Assembly: GCF_009914755.1 (NCBI RefSeq)
Contig: NC_060937.1
Source: the human T2T-CHM13v2.0 reference genome, Homo sapiens
Direction: 5' to 3' (one strand)
DNA: 64,000 bases
Positions 27,831 to 64,000 of the stretch are shown in pieces. The notes under the pieces were generated by a model. The model was given only the letters and a program-made list of their open reading frames with translations, had not been told where the DNA came from and did no database searches. Each line of letters starts with the position of its first letter. The stretch's first letter is position 1. Both the position numbers and the translations under genes were made by a program.

Positions 27831-28197
27831 ACACATCCACCAAAGCCCAGTCTCTGAGCTTCCAGGCCTGTGCCCTTTTCACCATCCCAACGTGATCCCC
27901 CACAAGAGGTTCTGAGGACCCATGGGCACCTTGAAGGTTAACCCAGGCCCCAGAGTCTCTGATAGTGCTGAAGTGTGCGTGAGTTGGAGTGTGGGAGGGT
28001 AAGGAAGAGGCTAGACCAATCCTCAACACCAGGGAGCTCTCCTGGAGCTGCTGGCCCCAGGTCTCTGCCTCCCCATCCAACACATGGCTATTGTGGGGTA
28101 AGTTCCCAGAAAAGCCTCCCAGGCTGGCCCTGCCAGGCAGCACAGGCGCTTTCCTGGTGGCTTTGGCTCTGCTTGTCTTGCGGTTTTCCATTTTTAC

Positions 28198-38049: not shown

Positions 38050-38340
38050 TGCCACTGTCAGAGCAGCGCTGCCCATCACCAAAGATGTCAACTGTCACCA
38101 GTGATGTCACCTGTCATCAGGGCGGTGCCACCTGTCAGAGCAGCGCTGCCCGTCATGAGGCGTCAACTGTCACCAGCGATGTCACCTGTCACCTGTCAGA
38201 GCAGCGCTGCCTGTCACCAGAGATGTCACTTGGCATCAGCAATGTGACCTGTCATCAGGGCAGTGCCACCTGTCAGAGCAGCATCACCCATCACCAGGGA
38301 CGTCACTTGGCATCAGCAATGTCATCCTGCTCCCCAGGTG
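38050..38340. repeat. Degenerate repeat (gtcacctgtca...gagcagcgctgcc)
   Basis: Several imperfect copies. Confidence 0.7.
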
Positions 38341-40489: not shown

Positions 40490-41170
40490 ATACCATGTGT
40501 GTGCACCTCCTGCCATGTGTGTCCACTACCTCCATGTGTGTGCACCTCCTCCTACGTGCCTACCACCTCCATGTGTGCATCTCCTCCCACGTGTGTGCAC
40601 CTCCTTCCACGTGTACCTCCTCCCATGTGTGTGCACCCCTCCGTGTGTACACCTCCCACGTGTGCACCTGTGTGTGCACCTCTGTGTGCCTGTGTGTGCA
40701 CCTCCTCCCATGTGTGTGCACCACCTCCTCCCACGTGCGTGCACCCCTCTCGCATGTGTGCACCTCCTCTGTGTGTACCTCCTGCCACGTGTGTGCACAC
40801 CTCCTCCCACGTGTGTGCACCTCCTCCCACGTGTGTGCACCACCTCCTCCCATGTGTGTGCACCTCCTGCTGTGTGTGCGCCTCCTCCATGTGTGCCTTC
40901 TCCCACATGTGCGCACCTCCTCCCACGTGTGCACCTTCTGCCATGTATGTGCACCTCCTCCGTCTGTGCCTTCTCCCACATGTGTGCACCTCCTGCCATG
41001 TGTGTGCGCCTCCTCCGTGTGTGTGCCTCCTCCCACGTGTGCACCACCTCCTCCCACGTGTTCACCTCCTCCGTGTGTGCACCTCCTGCCATGTGTGTGC
41101 ACCTCCACCCATGTGTGTGCACCTCCTGCCATGTGTGTGCATCTTGTACCATGTGTGCCTCGTGTGCGCC
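40490..41170. repeat. ~20-bp minisatellite (gtgtgcacctcctcccac)
   Basis: Directly visible, in the last RASA3 intron. Confidence 0.93.
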
Positions 41171-44649: not shown

Positions 44650-46520
44650 TCCACCCAGCCATCACTCACCCATCCGTCCATCCACCCATCTGTCCATCTA
44701 CCCATTACTCACCCATCCATCCCTCCACCCATCACTCACCCATCCATCCATCCACCCATGACTCACCCATCTGTCGATCCACCCATCATCACTCACTCCT
44801 CGGTCCATCCACCCATCACTCACCCATCTGTCGATCCACCCATCATCACTCACTCCTCGGTCCATCCACCCATCACTCACCCCTCAGTCCATCCATCACT
44901 CACCCATCTGTCCATCCATCACTCACCCATCTGTCCATCCATCCATTACTCACCCATCTGTCCATCCACCCATCACTCATCCCTCGGTCCATCCACCCAT
45001 CACTCACCCTATCCATCCACCCATCACTCACCCATCCGTCCACCTACCCATCACTCACCCATCCGTCCACCCATTCATCACTCACCCATCTGTCAATCCA
45101 CCCATCACTCACCCCTTTGTCCATGAACTCAACACTCATCCATCTGTCCATCCACCCATCACTCACCCATCCGTCCATCCACCCATCACTCACCCATCCG
45201 TCCATCCACCCATTACTCACCCATCCATCCATCCACCCATCACTCACCCACCCATCCATCCATCCACCCATCACTCACCCTTTGGTCCATGAACCTAACA
45301 CTCACCCATCTGTCCATCCACCTATCACTCACCCATCCATCCATCCACCATCACTCACCCATCCTTCCATCCACCCATCACTCATCCATCTGTCTATCCA
45401 CCCATCACTCACCCTGTCCATCCATCCATCACTCACCCATCTGTCCATCCACCCATTACTCACCCATCCATCCATCCACCCATCACTGACCCACCCATCC
45501 ATCCATCCACCCATCACTCACCCTTTGGTCCATGAACCTAACACTCACCCATCTGCCCATCCACCCATCACTCAACCATCTGTTAATCCACCCATCACTC
45601 GTCCATTGCTCCATCCACCCATCAGTCACCCATTGGTCCATCTGCCCATCACTCACCCATCTGTCCATCCACCCATCACTCGCCCATCTGTCCATCCACC
45701 CATCACTCACCCTGTCCGTACACCCATCACTCACCCTGTCCGTACACCCATCACTCACCCATCGGCCCATCCACCCATCACTCACCCATCTGTCAGTCCA
45801 CCCATCACTCACCCATCTGTCCATCAGCATCACTCACCCATCTGTCAGTCCACCGATCACTCACCCATCTGTCCATCACCATCACTCACCCATCTGTCCA
45901 TCCACCCATCACTCAACCCTCGGTCCATCCTCTCATCACTCACCCTGTCCTCCACCCATCACTCACCCATCTGTTCATCCACCCATCTACCCATCCATCC
46001 ATCCACCCATCTCTCACCCATCTGTCCATCCACCCATCACTCACCCATCCGTCCATCCACCCATTACTCACCCATCTGTTCATCCACCCATCACTCACCC
46101 ATCCTTCCATCCACCCATCTCTCACCATCTGTCCATCCACCCATCACTCACCCATCCGTCCATCCATCACTCACCCATCCTTCCATCCACCCATCTCTCA
46201 CCCATCCGTCCATCCACCCGTCACTCACCCATCTGTCCATCCACCATCACTCACCCATGCTTCCATCCACCCATCACTCACCCATCCGTCCATCCACCAT
46301 CACTCACCCATCCTTCCATCCACCCATCACTCATCCATCTATCCACCCATCACTCACCCCAGTCCATCCTCTCATCACTCACCCTGTCCAACCATCCATC
46401 ACTCACCCATCTGTCCATCCACCCATCTACCCATCCATCCATCCATCCACCCGTCACTCACCCATCCTTCCATCCACCCATCTCTCACCCAACCGTCCAT
46501 CCACCCATCTACCCACCCAC
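44650..46520. repeat. ~27-bp CCAT-based array (ccatccacccatcactcacccatctgt), 1.9 kb
   Basis: Directly visible. Confidence 0.96.
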
Positions 46521-52229: not shown

Positions 52230-52732
52230 GGCCCGGCTGATGGGGGGCCCTGCTGATGGGGGGCCTGACGGGGGGCCCAGCTGACGGGGGGCCCAGCTGA
52301 CGGAGGACCCAGCTGATGGGGGCCCGGCTGATGGGGGGCTGGCTGACGGAGGACCCGGCTGATGGGGGGCCTGGCTGACGGGGGGGCCCAGCTGACGGGG
52401 GCCTGGCTGACGGGGGGCCCGGCTGATGGGGGCCCGGCTGATGGGGGGCCCGGCTGACGGGGGGACCCGGCTGATGGGGAGGCCCGGCTGATGGGGAGGC
52501 CCGGCTGATGGGGGACCCGGCTGATGGGGGGGCCCGGCTAATGGGGGGCCTGGCTGATGGGGGGGCCAGGCTGATGGGGGACCCGGCTGATGGGGAGGCC
52601 CGGCTGATGGGGAGGCCCGGCTGATGGGGGACCCGGCTGATGGGGGGGCCCGGCTGATGGGGGGGCCCGGCTGATGGGGGGCCCGGCTGATGGGGGGCCC
52701 GGCTGATGGGGACCCGGCTGATGGGGGGCTGG
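52230..52732. repeat. 15-17-bp G-rich VNTR (ggcccggctgatgggg)
   Basis: About 30 copies. Confidence 0.96.
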
Positions 52733-56154: not shown

Positions 56155-56237
56155 GTTTTTCATTTTGAAAGACTCCTCCTCCAGCTTCTCCACTGCCAGG
56201 ATGTTCTCGATGGGAATGCTGTAGAGAGGCTGGTCCC
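56155..56237 (-). CDS. RASA3: RASA3 exon (probably 20): (G)[27 protein letters not shown]
   Basis: Acceptor ctgctgcag|GG, donor AAC|gtgagt; 83 nt; phases consistent with both neighbours. Confidence 0.96.
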
Positions 56238-56304: not shown

Positions 56305-56770
56305 AGGGGTCTCTGCCGGGGGGTCTCCCAGGGGGTCTTTACCGGGGGGTCTCTGCCAGGGGGTCTCTACCGGGGGGTCTCTGCCAGGGGGTCTCTGCCA
56401 GGGGGTCTCTACCGGGGGTCTCTGCTGGGGGGGTCTCTGCCAGGGGGTCTCTGCCAGGGGTCTCTACCGGGGGTCTCTACCGGGGGGGGTCTCTGCCAGG
56501 GGGTCTCTGCCGGGGGGTCTCTGCTGGGGGGGGGTCTCTGCTGGGGGGGTCTCTGTCAGGGGATCTCTACCGGGGGGTCTCTGCTGGAGGGTCTCTGCTA
56601 GAGGGTCTCTGCTGGGGGGTTCTCTGCTGGGGGGGGTCTCTGCCAGGAGGGTCTCTGCTGGGCGGTCTCTGTTGGGGTGGTCTCTGCCAGGAGGGTCTCT
56701 GCTGGGGGGGGTCTCTGTTGGGGGTGTCTCTGCTGGGGGTCTCTGCCAGCTGGGGGTCTCTGCTGGGGTG
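56305..56770. repeat. ~14-bp G-rich VNTR (gggggtctctgcc)
   Basis: Directly visible, ~70 nt upstream of a RASA3 acceptor. Confidence 0.95.
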
Positions 56771-57394
56771 CCCTGGGCCGGAGGAGGTGCCCCATGTTCA
56801 TCTCCTTGGGGATGATGGCTGAATCACTGACAGGCTGCAGGTGCGGGGGCTGAGGAAGCCTGGGACCCACCTGGCCCTGCCATGCACCCAGGCTGGGCCC
56901 AATGCTCGCATCCTCACAGCTGCCGTGGCCTCAGGCTCTGTCCCCAGAACATGTTCCCGTTCTGGGACATGAACATGGGAGAAACTGCTAGATATTTCCT
57001 AATCTAGATCTGAGCCAGCAGATCTGACAGCGAGGGGCAGGAGGTGGTGGGAAGCCCCGTCTACCTCGGCGGAGCGGCACCCTGGCCATGACGAGGCGAC
57101 CAGAGGAGGAAGGGACGTGGACAGAAAAGCACCTTACTGATGTGGTCAGCTCTGCGTTTACTGGTTCTCTGGGGAAGCAGATTTCCCTCACTTTCCAGCA
57201 GCAGGTCTGAAAGACCCCTTCAGGGATCTTTGAAGGGAGAACCAGAAGCAGAGGGCTCTGGGTCACCGCGGCCCCGGGCTCTGCCCGCAGCACTGAATCC
57301 TTCCTCCCCTCAGCTCTCCCCCTGAAAAAGCAGACTCAGTCCCAGGGCCCAGCACGCTCCAGCAAGAGCCAGGGAAAGCGACCTTGCTCCTTAC

Positions 57395-57501
57395 CTTTGC
57401 TTTTGTGGTAGGTAAATTCATGGTTGGTCAAGCGAAACCATCTCTTCTTAAAATTCTTCATCCCAAAGCGCTTCCGTCCTTGGGCCCTCTTGATCATGAA
57501 C
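57395..57501 (-). CDS. RASA3: RASA3 exon (probably 19): [35 protein letters not shown], basic PH-domain N-terminus
   Basis: Acceptor ttcacacag|G, donor AAAG|gtaagg; 107 nt; lies within ORF 57336..57518; typical GAP1-family PH motif. Confidence 0.96.
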
Positions 57502-57814
57502 CTGTGTGAAGAGCACACAGGGCCGGGGTCCGGGCCTCAGCTGCCTCCCTGCACAGGTGAAAAACCACACCCCCCACTTTCTGCGTTCTGAGACCTGAGG
57601 CAGGCAGTGGATTTTCAATATCTTATCATTTTACTCCGAGTGATGAGATTAAAATTGGAAGGCAATGCCTCTCCTTTGAAAAGTTGAGCGCTGACTGCTT
57701 TGAGTCACCAGTTGGTGATGGCACCAGGTTTTAGGAGATCTCCAACCCTCCTGCCTCCCACACTGAACTTTCAACAGTGGTGCTGCCACTGGAAATGCCA
57801 ATGCGATGCTCCCA

Positions 57815-58890
57815 CGGCGGACCTGCGGCCGTGGGCTCAGGGTCAGGGAGGGCAGCGGACGCCCACACAACACGGAGGACCTGCGGCCGCGGACCTGGGA
57901 TCAGGGTGGGCAGTAGACGCCCACACAACATGGAGGACCCGCGGCCGCGGGCTCGGGGTCAGGGCGGGCAGTGGACGCTCACACACAGAGGACCTACGGC
58001 CGCGGGCTCGGGGTCAGGGTGGGCAGTGGACACTCACGCAACATGGAGGACCTACAGCCACGGGCTCGGGGTCAGGGCAGGCAGTGGACGCTCACACACA
58101 GAGGACCTACAGCCGCGGGCTCGGGGTCAGGGCAGGCAGTGGACGCTCACACACAGAGGACCTACAGCCGCGGGCTCAGGGTCAGGGTGGACAGTGGATG
58201 CCCACACAACACAGAGGACCTACGGCCACAGGCTCGGGGTCAGGGCGGGCAGTGGATGCCCACACAACACGGAGGACCTGCGGCCGTGGGCTCGGGGTCA
58301 GGGCAGGCAGCGGACGCTCACACACGGAGGACCTGCGGCCGCGGGCTCGGGGTCAGGGTGGGCAGTGGACACTCACGCAACATGGAGGACCTACAGCCGC
58401 GGGCTCGGGGTCAGGGCAGGCAGTGGACGCTCACACACAGAGGACCTACAGCCGCGGGCTCGGGGTCAGGGCGGGCAGTGGACGCTCACACACGGAGGAC
58501 CTGCGGCCGCGGGCTCGGGGTCAGGGTGGGCAGTGGACACTCACGCAACATGGAGGACCTACAGCCGCGGGCTCGGGGTCAGGGCAGGCAGTGGACGCTC
58601 ACACACAGAGGACCTACAGCCGCGGGCTCAGGGTCAGGGCGGACAGTGGATGCCCACACAACACAGAGGACCTACGGCCACAGGCTCGGGGTCAGGGCGG
58701 GCAGTGGATGCCCACACAACACGGAGGACCTGCGGCCGTGGGCTCGGGGTCAGGGCAGGCAGCGGACGCTCACACACGGAGGACCTGCGGCCGCGGGCTC
58801 GGGGTCAGAGCGGGCAGCAGACGCCCATACTCAGAGGACCTGCAGCCACAGGCTTGGGGCCGGGGCAGGCAGCAGACGCCCACAAAACCC
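57815..58890. repeat. 56-58-bp CpG-rich VNTR (ggaggacctacagccgcgggctcggggtcagggcaggcagtggacgctcacacac)
   Basis: About 19 copies. Confidence 0.96.
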
Positions 58891-61264: not shown

Positions 61265-62340
61265 AACAGAGTATCCACAAAAATAGACAAATGGGACTTA
61301 ATTAAACTAAACAGCTTCTGCACAGCAAAATAAATAACCAACAGAGCAAACAGACGACCTGCAGAATGGGAGGATATTTGCAAAGCACAGATCCAATAGG
61401 GGACTAACAGCCACAATTTAGAAGGAACTCAAACAACTTAACAAAAAAAATAAAAATTAAAAAAAAATTTAAAAGTGGCCAAAGGACAGGGGGATAGACG
61501 TTTTTCAGAAGACAAATGGCCAACAAGCATACGATATAAAGCCCAGCGTGGCTCATCACCTGAGGAATGAGAGCCAGAGCTGCCTGTGACCCCACCTCAC
61601 GCCAGGCAGAACGAAGCCACCTGCGACCCCAGCTCACGCCAGGCAGAATGGTGCCGCCTGAACCCAGCTCACGCCGGGCAGAATGGCTGGGATCAAATAA
61701 AACACGGAAAAATGACAGACGCTGCAGAGCTGTGGAGGACGTGAGCGCTTGCACGCTGTGGGGAATGGAAATTAGCGCTTAAGGAAACCCACGGAGATTT
61801 CTCAAGGAGCTAAAGGCAGAGCCGCCATTCGATCCAGCAATCCCACACCAGGCCCCACCCAAAGGAAGAGCAATTACCAAAAAGACACCTGCATGCGTAT
61901 GTTTACCGCTGAACCACTCACAACAGCAAAGACACGGAATCCACGTGTCCACCAACGGACGACTGGATAAAGAAAACGTGGCATAAATACACCACGACAT
62001 GCTACTCCACCATCAAGAGGAAGGAAATCTTATGTTTTCCAGCAACGTGAACGGAACTAGAGGTTGTTATCTTAAGGGAGATGACTCAGAGACGAAAAGC
62101 CAAACGCCCCATGTTCTCACTGGTCCATAGGAGATAAACACGGAGGGGCGGGGCGCTCTGGGACACGTATTCGGAATCACAGACTGAGGCCTCGGAAGGG
62201 TGGAGGCGGGAGCGGGAGAGGAATGAGAAATTACTCAGTGGGCACAAAGTGCCCGTTCAGGTGACGGTTTCACGAGAAGCCCCATCCAATACAACTGCAC
62301 TTGTGCCCGACATGTTGGCAAACACATAAAAAATACAGGA
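61265..62340 (+). mobile_element. L1 (L1PB/L1MA-like) 3' fragment
   Basis: aaatagacaaatgggacttaattaaactaaacagcttctgcacagcaaaa and later L1 ORF2-end/3'UTR motifs. Confidence 0.88.
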
Positions 62341-62809
62341 ACATGGTCCACACCAGGCAGAGCAAAGCCCCGAGCGGGAGTGGGAGCCGGGCCACAGGAC
62401 GGGGTTGGTGGAAACGGGCAGACGTGTCAGTTATGTAAGGAAGGTTGATGGGCTCTGATGCTCCAGGGACCTCTGGGTGGAGGTTGAGGGAGGACAGGCC
62501 TGTGTCAGAAACACGGGGTGGCTGTGGGACACAGACGTCCCCCTCCAAGGTCACCGAGAAGGTGGCAGGAGGGGTCCCAGGCTGAAGGTGCAGGGGCCAG
62601 ACCCCCAGGGCTGTCCCCTCTGACTCTGGTTCCCTGACCAAAGAGCCCTCGGGAGCCTGGAGGGAAGGCCAGCCCCAAGTGCGGGTGTGGACAACACGGC
62701 CAGTGGTACAGAAATCACAAGGCTGCTGGCCAGCAAGGGAGGAGGCTGCCCCCGACTAGGGAGTCTTCTGGAATGTGCTGGGTGCTCTGGGGACTGGGGG
62801 CCCCCATCC

Positions 62810-63520
62810 CTTTCTCCCCTCCGGCCCTGCCGGATGCCACCTTACCCTTCTCCCCGCTCCTGCCCTGCCGGACACCACCTTACCCTTCTCCCCGCTCCTG
62901 CCCTGCCGGACACCACCTTACCCTTCTCCCCTCCTGCCCTGCCGGACACCACATTACCTTTTCTCCCCTCCTGCCCTGCCGGACGCCACCTTACCCTTCT
63001 CCCCTCCTGCCCTGCCGGACACCACATTACCTTTTCTCCCCTCCTGCCCTGCCGGACGCCACCTTACCCTTCTCCCCTCCTGCCCTGCCGGACACCACCT
63101 TACCCTTCTCCCCTCCTGCCCTGCCGGACGCCACCTTACCCTTCTCCCCCCTCCTGCCCTGCCGGACACCACCTTACCCTTCTCCCCTCCTGCCCTGCCG
63201 GACACCACCTTACCCTTCTCCCCCCTCCTGCCCTGCCGGACACCACCTTACCCTTCTCCCCCCTCCTGCCCTGCCGGACACCACCTTACCCTTCTCCCCC
63301 CTCCTGCCCTGCCGGACGCCACCTTACCCTTCTCCCCGCTCCTGCCCTGCCGGACACCACCTTACCCTTCTCCCCACTCCTGCCCTGCTGGACACCACCT
63401 TACCCTTCTCCCCACTCCTGCCCTGCTGGACGCCACCTTACCCTTCTCCCCCCTCCTGCCCTGCCGGACGCCACCTTACCCTTCTCCCCTCCTGCCCTGC
63501 CAGACGCCACCTTACCCTCC
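62810..63520. repeat. 36-38-bp VNTR abutting a RASA3 exon donor
   Basis: About 19 copies of cttacccttctcccc(c)ctcctgccctgccggac(a/g)ccac. Confidence 0.97.
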
Positions 63521-63524
63521 TTAC

Positions 63525-63598
63525 CCTTCTTTAAGCACGATGGGCTGCTCAACACTCTTGGGGTCTCTTCTCCCCGAGGACGAAATCAGATCCAAGAA
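63525..63598 (-). CDS. RASA3: RASA3 coding exon (probably exon 18): FLDLISSSGRRDPKSVEQPIVLKE(G), end of GAP region and start of PH domain
   Basis: Acceptor ccaactttag|TTC, donor GAAGG|gtaagg; 74 nt, phase joins the next exon (GG+G=Gly). Peptide recognised as RASA3. Absent from the ORF track. Confidence 0.93.
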
Positions 63599-64000
63599 CT
63601 AAAGTTGGAAGAAATCAGGTCACCGGGAGGAAGCCACACATCTGACGTGCACGGCTCTCTGTATAACAACAGCGTCGGCGGCTACTGCCTCCTTTGTAAT
63701 ACCGGTGGAGACAGAATCTGGGCAAGTGAGTCCTTCCCCGAGGGCTGTGGGGCCTCTGCTCCCCACTGTGCCACCCCAGCCCCGGCACTGCCACAGAGAT
63801 CTCAGGTGAGAGGCCGGGCTCAGGCAACACCTGGGGATCAACCTGCATCTCCAGAGGCCACCCAGGGGTGACTCTAAGCAGGGAATCTGGGTCCCGGTAG
63901 TGAGGAGGCTCAGGCATCCCTGACTGTGGGGAGGAGCAGAGCCCTGGGGCCTGGAGGTTGCCCCCACGCACCGCGTTCCTGACTGTGGGGAGGAGCAGAG

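What the first reader, a model, noticed from the sequence alone, without database searches (positions are those of the whole stretch)
62810..63530. VNTR made of copies of the RASA3 exon's own splice donor: 19 extra 5' splice sites, all leading to a stop codon
Seen: the authentic donor is AAAGAAGG|GTAAGG at 63525/63524. A second AGG|GTAAGG follows 9 nt into the intron. Every 36-38-bp unit after that carries GAGAAGG|GTAAGGT, except two units with AAG|GTAATG. I count 19 extra donors, 17 of them with a -3..+6 9-mer identical to the real one. Any downstream donor extends the exon to read ...AAA GAA GGG TAA, a stop immediately after KEG and just before the PH/Btk module. Established: stops far upstream of the last exon junction usually trigger NMD, and the RASA3 PH domain mediates membrane targeting. 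Inference: repeat copy number could act as a heritable dial on productive RASA3 splicing (donor competition or U1 loading), or yield a PH-less GAP.
Basis: partly seen in the sequence, partly recalled or inferred. Interest (0 to 1): 0.85.

Follow-up and report, generated by a model that had tools for sequence, protein, structure and literature searches.

The report
Intron minisatellite repeating RASA3's splice donor
A 0.7-kb tandem repeat that begins at the end of a RASA3 exon copies that exon's splice signal 19 more times, a real but already known kind of arrangement whose effect on RASA3 output is still untested.

Summary
On the minus strand, exon 63525-63598 ends AAAGAAGG|GTAAGG. A tandem array of 36-38-nt units (62808-63518; 19.1 copies, 92% match) starts at that donor. 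It holds 17 exact copies of the 9-mer AGG|GTAAGG and 2 AAG|GTAATG, so 19 extra donors. Any of them reads KEG-stop. The next exon opens the PH domain.

A paralogue on contig C3 has the same 74-nt exon ending AAAGAAGG|GTAA, with no repeat after it. The donor and its stop are therefore ancestral and the array is a later copy of them. The unit occurs nowhere else in the genome.

The kind is known. The ABCA7 intron-18 VNTR also starts with its exon's donor. There, one-unit retention was about 2% of transcripts and did not depend on repeat length.

In RASA3 every decoy but the first is preceded by two G-runs. G-runs favour the upstream donor and silence when they lie in an exon. I expect the real donor to dominate and decoys to leak at low level into NMD.

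Not shown: copy-number variation, decoy use, or any dial effect. Only one assembly and no RNA data were available. Verdict: new member of a known kind, moderate interest.

The parts
63525..63598 (-). RASA3 coding exon (74 nt, FLDLISSSGRRDPKSVEQPIVLKE plus GG), the last exon before the PH domain
   Evidence: Hub annotation. Frame checked. No Pfam match for the exon itself. The homologous 74-nt exon in the C3 paralogue was found.
63519..63527 (-). Annotated (authentic) donor AGG|GTAAGG. The exon's last 6 nt (AGAAGG) are the same as the end of each repeat unit.
   Evidence: Predicted U1 duplex energy -9.4 kcal/mol. Positions -8 to +4 are identical in the paralogue.
63510..63518 (-). First decoy donor, 9 nt into the intron, made by a 9-nt duplication (GGTAAGGAG / GGTAAGGTG). 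No G-run separates it from the real donor.
   Evidence: TRF period-9 row..
62808..63518 (-). Tandem array of 19 units of 36-38 nt (unit GGTAAGGTGGYGTCCGGCAGGGCAGGAG(G/C/T)GGG(GG)AGAAG). It is G-rich and 78% purine on the RNA strand. It carries 17 exact and 2 variant copies of the donor.
   Evidence: 12 distinct variants among 20 pieces. (G-runs). (GC skew about -0.65 on the plus strand). (unit unique in the genome).
63025..63033 (-). Variant decoy donor AAG|GTAATG, part of a two-unit (73-nt) higher-order duplicate
   Evidence: Predicted U1 duplex energy -7.6 kcal/mol.
62952..62960 (-). Second variant decoy donor AAG|GTAATG
62808..62846 (-). Degenerate last unit (GGTAAGGTGGCATCCGGCAGGGCCGGAGGGGAGAAAGGG...), where the array decays into unique intron sequence
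   Evidence: It matches the unit pattern with 2 mismatches.
57395..57501 (-). Next exon, whose acceptor any of the donors would join. It is the start of the PH domain.
   Evidence: Hub annotation. Pfam PH profile positions 6-36.

Best explanation
This is a G-rich minisatellite near the chromosome end. It arose by tandem duplication of a roughly 38-nt segment made of the last 6 nt of the RASA3 exon (AGAAGG) and the first ~32 nt of the intron, so each unit carries a full copy of the ancestral donor AGG|GTAAGG.

Shown:
- the anatomy of the array;
- the identity of the decoys to the real donor;
- the in-frame stop;
- that the donor is ancestral;
- that the unit is unique in the genome.

Inferred mechanism. 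The authentic donor stays dominant because of where it sits.
- It is the only copy with ordinary exon sequence upstream.
- It has the whole G-run-rich array downstream, where G-runs bound by hnRNP F/H act as intronic enhancers.
- Every decoy beyond the +9 one has two G-runs directly upstream. Those would lie inside the extended exon and act as silencers.
- Decoys from the sixth onward (63327) would make exons longer than 250 nt.

I expect decoys, above all the one at +9 nt, to be used at a low level of a few percent. Those transcripts end at KEG-stop and should be removed by NMD. On this reading the array is largely self-insulating, and its copy number has at most a small effect on RASA3 output.
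For: Anatomy.

Donor ancestral, array secondary: the paralogue's 74-nt exon ends AAAGAAGG|GTAATT. TRF finds no repeat in the 638 nt after it that I held.

Unit unique in the genome: 16 of 16 matches with up to 2 mismatches lie in this array, and the reversed-pattern control gives 0.

Minisatellite character: 67% GC and strong strand asymmetry. The 10-nt part GGGCAGGARG of the hypervariable minisatellite core is present in 13 units. The window holds 17 matches in all against 1.55 expected, and 0 of 100 shuffles reach 17. The core is named in PMC9069542 Table 2. The window is packed with other tandem arrays.

G-run bias:
- 56 runs of three or more G in the 717-nt array (7.8 per 100 nt);
- 1 in the 74-nt exon;
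- 67 in the remaining 5306 nt of the intron (1.3 per 100 nt);
- 2 G-runs in each of 18 of the 19 intervals between donors, and none in the 9-nt interval.

The position rule for G-runs is stated in PMC4176321 (discussion passage) and in PMC12062376. The second paper shows that G-runs between a weak native TP53 exon-6 donor and a strong cryptic donor 63 nt downstream keep the native donor in use.

Precedent for low, length-independent decoy use: ABCA7 (PMC5954066, section 21).

The hub's table lists no alternative RASA3 exon in this window among 14 RefSeq transcripts.
Against: The decoys look fully competent.
- They have the same predicted U1 pairing energy as the real donor (-9.4 kcal/mol), near the strong end of the 12 annotated donors in the window, which range from -4.9 to -10.1.
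- A thermodynamic fold predicts the inner decoys to be more exposed (unpaired probability 0.78-0.98) than the real donor (0.42).
- The first five decoys would give exons of 83-233 nt, well within normal size.
- The +9 decoy has no G-run between it and the real donor.
- From memory only: in vitro work on duplicated strong donors found a preference for the donor nearest the acceptor.

NMD would hide decoy use from transcript catalogues, so the silence of RefSeq is weak evidence.

I could not compute MaxEnt or SpliceAI scores. I saw no RNA data and only one human assembly.
Confidence: 0.55

Rival explanations
1. The 19 decoys compete with the real donor for U1 and for pairing with the acceptor. 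A fraction of transcripts that rises with copy number is then spliced from a decoy, ends at KEG-stop and is degraded by NMD, or yields a GAP without its PH domain. Repeat length would set RASA3 dosage.
For: 17 of the 19 decoys are identical to the real donor in the 9-mer and in predicted U1 duplex energy. They are predicted to be unpaired. The stop and its position before the PH/Btk module are confirmed. In ABCA7 a donor inside such a repeat is really used, and its product rises after cycloheximide (PMC5954066).
Against: In ABCA7 the decoy isoform was about 2% of transcripts and did not change with VNTR length. Two G-runs precede each decoy beyond +9 and should silence it. No RefSeq model in the hub's table uses a decoy. 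The array is not among the significant expression-associated loci listed for RASA3 in the Lu 2021 and Lu 2023 supplements that I could search, though I cannot tell whether it was tested. Copy-number variation itself is not shown.
Confidence: 0.15
2. The array works as an intronic splicing enhancer. It is a dense block of G-runs and U1-binding sites just downstream of the exon. This block recruits hnRNP F/H and U1 and strengthens recognition of the small 74-nt exon and its first donor, so more copies would help productive splicing rather than hurt it.
For: G-run density in the array is six times that of the rest of the intron. G-runs downstream of a donor act as enhancers (PMC4176321 and PMC12062376). 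[quoted passage not shown]
Against: The real donor already pairs well with U1 (-9.4 kcal/mol), so it may not need help. In the TP53 study an exon with strong sites tolerated loss of such elements (discussion passage). The paralogue's homologous exon ends in the same junction and has no such array.
Confidence: 0.15
3. The effect depends on length and not on the donors. The G-rich non-template strand forms R-loops or G-quadruplexes, slows RNA polymerase II or lengthens the intron, and thereby changes inclusion of the flanking exons, as with ABCA7 exon 19 skipping. Both flanking exons (74 and 107 nt) would shift the frame if skipped.
For: GC skew is about -0.65 across the array. There are 13 G-quadruplex-type motifs if one long loop of up to 21 nt is allowed. 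ABCA7 exon 19 skipping rose 3.2-fold from the smallest to the largest allele pair.
Against: There are no canonical G-quadruplex motifs with loops of up to 7 or up to 12 nt. The array is only 0.7 kb here, whereas the expanded ABCA7 alleles were up to 9.7 kb. No data on RASA3 exon skipping were available to me.
Confidence: 0.1

Closest known systems
ABCA7 intron-18 VNTR (De Roeck et al. 2018, PMC5954066; passages and section 21 read)
   Same: Both are tandem arrays that immediately flank an exon and include its splice donor. In both, each unit begins with a donor GT, and use of a donor inside the repeat gives a premature stop and an NMD substrate. Both lie in an intron inside the coding region of a dosage-relevant gene.
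   Different: ABCA7 has a 25-nt unit in a region the paper calls C-rich. RASA3 has a 36-38-nt G-rich unit with two G-runs between donors. In ABCA7 the stop comes from a frameshift after one retained unit. In RASA3 the stop is the TAA of the real donor itself (GG|G TAA), so it is the same for all decoys. For ABCA7 the variation, isoforms, NMD sensitivity and disease association were measured. For RASA3 none of these has been.
Hypervariable GC-rich minisatellites of the Jeffreys type (core GGAGGTGGGCAGGARG as listed in PMC9069542 Table 2)
   Same: Unit length of tens of nt, high GC with strong strand asymmetry, a location near the chromosome end (the chromosome length is recalled), patchy unit variants with local higher-order duplicates, and the 10-nt core part GGGCAGGAGG in 13 of the 19 units.
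   Different: Only 10 of the 16 core positions form the exact motif that I tested. By my own reading the full 16-mer matches at 11 of 16 positions. Variability between people is not shown. The recalled PRDM9 13-mer is essentially absent, with 1 hit at the 9-nt duplication.
G-run control of competing native and cryptic donors, TP53 intron 6 (PMC12062376; passages read)
   Same: Runs of three or more G lie between an upstream native donor and a downstream donor that is as strong or stronger. In TP53 they keep the native donor in use and the cryptic one silent.
   Different: TP53 has one cryptic donor and five G-runs in 85 nt, tested by deletion. RASA3 has 19 decoys and 56 G-runs, untested. The RASA3 native donor is strong, whereas the TP53 one is weak.

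Membership tests
Minisatellite / VNTR | Head-to-tail tandem units of roughly 10-100 nt | tested here: met
   TRF: period 38, 19.1 copies, 92% matches. Units are 36-38 nt.
Minisatellite / VNTR | Copy number differs between individuals | not testable with these tools
   Only one human assembly is held. The array is absent from the VNTRseek list, where consecutive rows jump from hg38 113999163 to 114080667 (prefix look-ups found 0). It is also absent from the Lu 2021 list, where indexes 18556 and 18557 jump from 114001808 to 114043822. The hg38 position is my own projection from neighbouring arrays.
Minisatellite / VNTR | GC-rich with purine/pyrimidine strand asymmetry, and a Jeffreys-type core | tested here: met
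   GC 0.67 and purine 0.78 on the RNA strand. GC skew about -0.65. GGGCAGGARG in 13 units, enriched over shuffles. Only the 10-nt part of the 16-nt core was tested.
Donor-containing intronic VNTR (ABCA7 intron-18 type) | The array starts at the exon's donor, and units carry donor sequences | tested here: met
   The exon's last 6 nt plus the donor are in register with the units. There are 17 exact and 2 variant donor copies.
Donor-containing intronic VNTR (ABCA7 intron-18 type) | Donors inside the repeat are used in real transcripts | not testable with these tools
   No RNA data. The hub's table shows no alternative RASA3 exon here. No paper on it was found.
Donor-containing intronic VNTR (ABCA7 intron-18 type) | Repeat length is associated with splicing or expression | not testable with these tools
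   No RASA3 entry in the Hamanaka 2023 supplements (one file not searched). The RASA3 entries in the Lu 2021 and Lu 2023 supplements concern other arrays.
Unproductive splicing coupled to NMD | The alternative site introduces a stop more than 50-55 nt upstream of the last exon junction | tested here: met
   Read-through gives KEG*. Six coding exons with 763 nt of coding sequence follow.
Unproductive splicing coupled to NMD | The isoform is observed and is stabilised when NMD is blocked | not testable with these tools

The most novel reading that the evidence does not exclude
The repeat is a variable, heritable regulator of RASA3 dosage. Alleles with more, or differently composed, units would divert a measurable share of transcripts to decoy donors and NMD. 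Conversely, G-run-rich alleles would protect the real donor. Unit number and unit sequence would then jointly tune RASA3 levels in blood cells and other tissues. The array would be a self-insulated decoy cluster, in which the same unit carries both a perfect donor and its own silencer. Loss of G-runs, for example by the G-to-T or G-to-C unit variants already seen in 5 units, would unmask the decoys.
Probability: 0.12. Interest if true: 0.65.

Novelty: new member of a known kind. Interest (0 to 1): 0.4.

Why it matters
RASA3 is a Ras/Rap GTPase-activating protein that appears sensitive to dosage. Nonsense variants made it a high-confidence candidate gene for short stature (PMC6777496, passage read). 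From memory, mouse mutants show platelet and red-cell defects.

If the repeat varies and alters productive splicing, it would be a hidden source of RASA3 expression variation. Short-read studies miss an array of this length, and it is absent from two short-read-derived VNTR catalogues.

It would also be a clean natural test of how the spliceosome chooses among many identical donors, and of whether G-runs can insulate them.

If the decoys are silent, as I think more likely, the locus is an ordinary minisatellite near the chromosome end that happened to be seeded at an exon border.

Tried and rejected
- PRDM9 hotspot motif (CCNCCNTNNCCNC, recalled). Only 1 hit in the array, at 63507-63519. The window total of 14 is not clearly above chance (mean 7.88; 5 of 100 shuffles reach 14). 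Rejected as a feature of this array.
- Canonical G-quadruplexes. 0 motifs with loops of up to 7 or up to 12 nt, and 13 only if a 21-nt loop is allowed.
- Secondary structure hiding the decoys. Rejected, because the decoys are predicted to be more open than the real donor.
- Internal pseudo-exons. There is no pyrimidine tract of 8 nt or more on the RNA strand of the array, so there are no acceptor-like sites.
- A coding role. Stops occur in all three sense frames. The plus-strand open frames of 253 and 345 aa are low-complexity products of a stop-free repeat unit.
- A dispersed repeat family. Rejected, because the unit is found only here.
- The validated 38-nt RASA3 VNTR of the VNTRseek paper. 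It is a different locus, hg38 chr13:114098935-114099206.
- A CUL4A repeat at a splice site, which I recalled as another precedent. It could not be verified: the search returned 2 unrelated papers, so I dropped it.
- The RASA3 exon-junction entry in the platelet proteomics paper (PMC2654914). It gives only Ensembl exon ids that I could not place.
- A five-term search for other repeats with cryptic donors and NMD found 0 papers.
- The multi-term RASA3 sQTL search was badly framed. It returned 7,744 papers, and only 1 of the 15 listed mentions RASA3.

Full report
**1. What is there**

On the minus strand (the RASA3 strand) the coding exon 63525-63598 ends ...CTT AAA GAA GG and is followed by GTAAGG. 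Tandem Repeats Finder reports one array at 62808-63518 with period 38, 19.1 copies, 92% matches and score 1142. It also reports a small 9-nt duplication at 63510-63531.

Cutting the array at each GGTAA(G/T)G gives one 9-nt piece and 19 units of 36-38 nt, the last one degenerate. There are 12 distinct variants among the 20 pieces. The variants are patchy:
- C or T at one CpG site (8 C, 11 T);
- GGGG or GGGGGG runs;
- AGT or AGC variants in 5 units;
- a two-unit (73-nt) block containing the GTAATG variant, present twice.

This is the usual look of a minisatellite that has grown by local duplication.

**2. The count and its significance**

Listing every GT on the minus strand of 62600-63600 gives the 9-mer AGG|GTAAGG at the annotated donor and at 17 more places, plus AAG|GTAATG at two.

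In the whole window the 9-mer occurs 19 times: 18 here and one unrelated on the plus strand at 27996. Shuffles expect 0.51, and 0 of 100 shuffles reach 19. The excess is explained by the repeat and is not independent evidence of selection.

**3. Frame and consequence**

The exon and the six downstream coding exons add up to 837 nt with one stop, at the end. Reading past the donor gives ...IVLKEG followed by TAA. Every decoy must include the real donor's GTAA, so every decoy gives the same stop.

Six exon junctions lie downstream. By the 50-55-nt rule (established knowledge) the products should be NMD substrates.

The next exon matches Pfam PH profile positions 6-36. Exon 53143-53349 matches PH positions 70-104 and the BTK motif (E 3.6e-15).

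**4. Which came first**

The assembly holding the window can be searched. The PH-start exon finds a paralogue on contig C3. From memory of its chromosomal place this is RASA2; no tool named it.

In the 10 kb upstream of that hit, tblastn finds the homologue of the 24-aa exon (FLDEISSTETKESSGTSEPVHLKE, E 0.001 in that small search). The sequence shows a 74-nt exon of the same length and phase ending AAAGAAGG|GTAATT. This is identical to RASA3 from -8 to +4, including the GG|G TAA stop. TRF finds no repeat downstream of it in the 638 nt I held.

The donor and its stop are therefore older than the split of the two genes, and the RASA3 array is a later copy of them.

The register fits a tandem duplication of a 38-nt segment that included the last 6 nt of the exon. 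The exon ends AGAAGG, and so does every unit before its GTAAGG.

The unit is not a dispersed family. A pattern search of the whole genome with up to 2 mismatches found 16 matches, all in this array, and none for the reversed control.

**5. Surroundings**

The window lies, by my recall of the chromosome's length, within about half a megabase of the chromosome end. It is crowded with tandem arrays (52 TRF rows in 36000-64000).

The array is 67% GC and 78% purine on the RNA strand, with a GC skew of about -0.65.

The 10-nt part GGGCAGGARG of the hypervariable minisatellite core is present in 13 units. The window holds 17 matches against 1.55 expected, and 0 of 100 shuffles reach 17. PMC9069542 Table 2 lists the core as GGAGGTGGGCAGGARG.

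The recalled PRDM9 13-mer is not a feature of the array (1 hit).

**6. Are the decoys competent?**

By the tests I could run, yes.
- It is -7.6 kcal/mol for the two variants.
- The 12 annotated donors in the window range from -4.9 to -10.1.
- In a partition-function fold of the exon plus array, the real donor's 9-mer has a mean unpaired probability of 0.42, the +9 decoy 0.48, and the inner decoys 0.78-0.98. Structure does not hide them.
- The first five decoys would give exons of 83-233 nt, and the last one 753 nt.
- The array has no pyrimidine tract of 8 nt or more on the RNA strand, so it cannot supply acceptors. Only exon extension is possible.

**7. Why the real donor may still win**

The array holds 56 runs of three or more G in 717 nt (7.8 per 100 nt). 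The exon has 1 in 74 nt, and the rest of the intron has 67 in 5306 nt (1.3 per 100 nt). Each of 18 of the 19 intervals between donors holds two G-runs. The 9-nt interval holds none.

G-runs bound by hnRNP F/H enhance a donor from downstream and silence from inside the exon. This is stated in the discussion passage of PMC4176321 and in the introduction of PMC12062376.

The second paper also gives a direct experimental parallel. In TP53 intron 6, G-runs between a weak native donor and a strong cryptic donor 63 nt downstream keep the native donor in use. Deleting four of them switches splicing fully to the cryptic site.

Applied here, the first donor has the whole G-run block downstream and ordinary exon sequence upstream. 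Each later decoy would carry G-runs inside its extended exon. This step is inference and was not tested. The +9 decoy escapes this logic and is the likeliest to be used.

**8. What is known**

The kind is documented. The ABCA7 intron-18 VNTR has a 25-nt unit. It immediately flanks exon 18, and its first two bases are the exon's donor (PMC5954066).

A donor one unit in is used and gives a frameshift and a premature stop. That isoform was 2 +/- 1% of transcripts, rose with cycloheximide, and was not affected by VNTR size. Skipping of the next exon did increase with size (section 21).

For RASA3 I found nothing in print on this array.
- The searches were RASA3 with VNTR (3 papers), with tandem repeat (9 papers) and with splice site (16 papers).
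- The one validated RASA3 VNTR, also with a 38-nt unit, is another locus at hg38 chr13:114098935-114099206.

I placed the array in hg38 by anchoring on neighbouring arrays:
- window 52230-52729 corresponds to hg38 113995592-113996120;
- window 57813-58884 corresponds to hg38 114001242-114001808.

This puts the array near hg38 114,005,700-114,006,450. That is my projection and not a tool result.

It is absent from the VNTRseek list and from the Lu 2021 locus list. It is not among the entries of the Lu 2023 supplements I could search (one file not searched, one cut). The Hamanaka 2023 supplements have no RASA3 entry (one file not searched). These absences do not show that the array was tested.

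**9. Verdict**

The structural part of the interpretation, copies of the exon's own donor that all lead to a stop before PH/Btk, is supported and strengthened by the paralogue comparison.

The functional part, a heritable dial, is open. I could show neither variation nor decoy use. The nearest precedent and the G-run layout both suggest low, length-independent leakage.

I file it as a new member of a known kind with moderate interest. It is easy to test with public junction data and long-read assemblies.

Noticed in passing
window 57813-58884: A second large tandem array (periods 55/113/339/452, about 1.07 kb) lies in the same intron, 312 nt upstream of the acceptor at 57501. It carries 7 of the window's 14 matches to the recalled PRDM9 13-mer. 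By my coordinate projection it is locus 18556 of the Lu 2021 list (hg38 114001242-114001808; 566 bp in hg38, mean 579.9, sd 58.1). It would then be about twice as long in this assembly.
   Followed up: partly
window 56306-56768: A 14-nt unit repeated 32 times (GGGGTCTCTGCCGG on the plus strand) ends 69 nt upstream of the acceptor of exon 56155-56237. It lies close to where that intron's branch point should be.
   Followed up: no
window 38050-38191 and 40493-41157: By coordinate projection these arrays are the RASA3 expression-associated repeats listed in the Lu 2023 supplements. They are hg38 113977408-113977549 (thyroid, p 1.5e-55) and 113979851-113980497 (testis). RASA3 expression is thus already linked to other repeats at its 3' end.
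   Followed up: partly
window 62773-63871, plus strand: Open frames of 253 and 345 aa run through the array on the plus strand. They encode low-complexity Pro/Leu/Ser-rich repeats. This is a mechanical result of a stop-free, pyrimidine-rich unit. Nothing is annotated here and there is no other sign of a gene.
   Followed up: partly
window 57387-57397, minus strand: The donor of the next exon (57395-57501) is AAG|GTAAGGAG. It shares the intron part GTAAGGAG with the authentic donor of exon 63525-63598. Probably coincidence.
   Followed up: no
window 61587-61686: A small 37-nt repeat of 2.8 copies lies 1.1 kb further into the same intron. It is unrelated in sequence to the donor array.
   Followed up: no
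window 44683-46519: A 27-nt unit repeated 69 times (1.8 kb) lies in a RASA3 intron. The shift in offset between hg38 and this assembly across this part of the window (about 4 kb, from the anchors) suggests a large length difference somewhere between 41 and 52 kb, possibly here.
   Followed up: no
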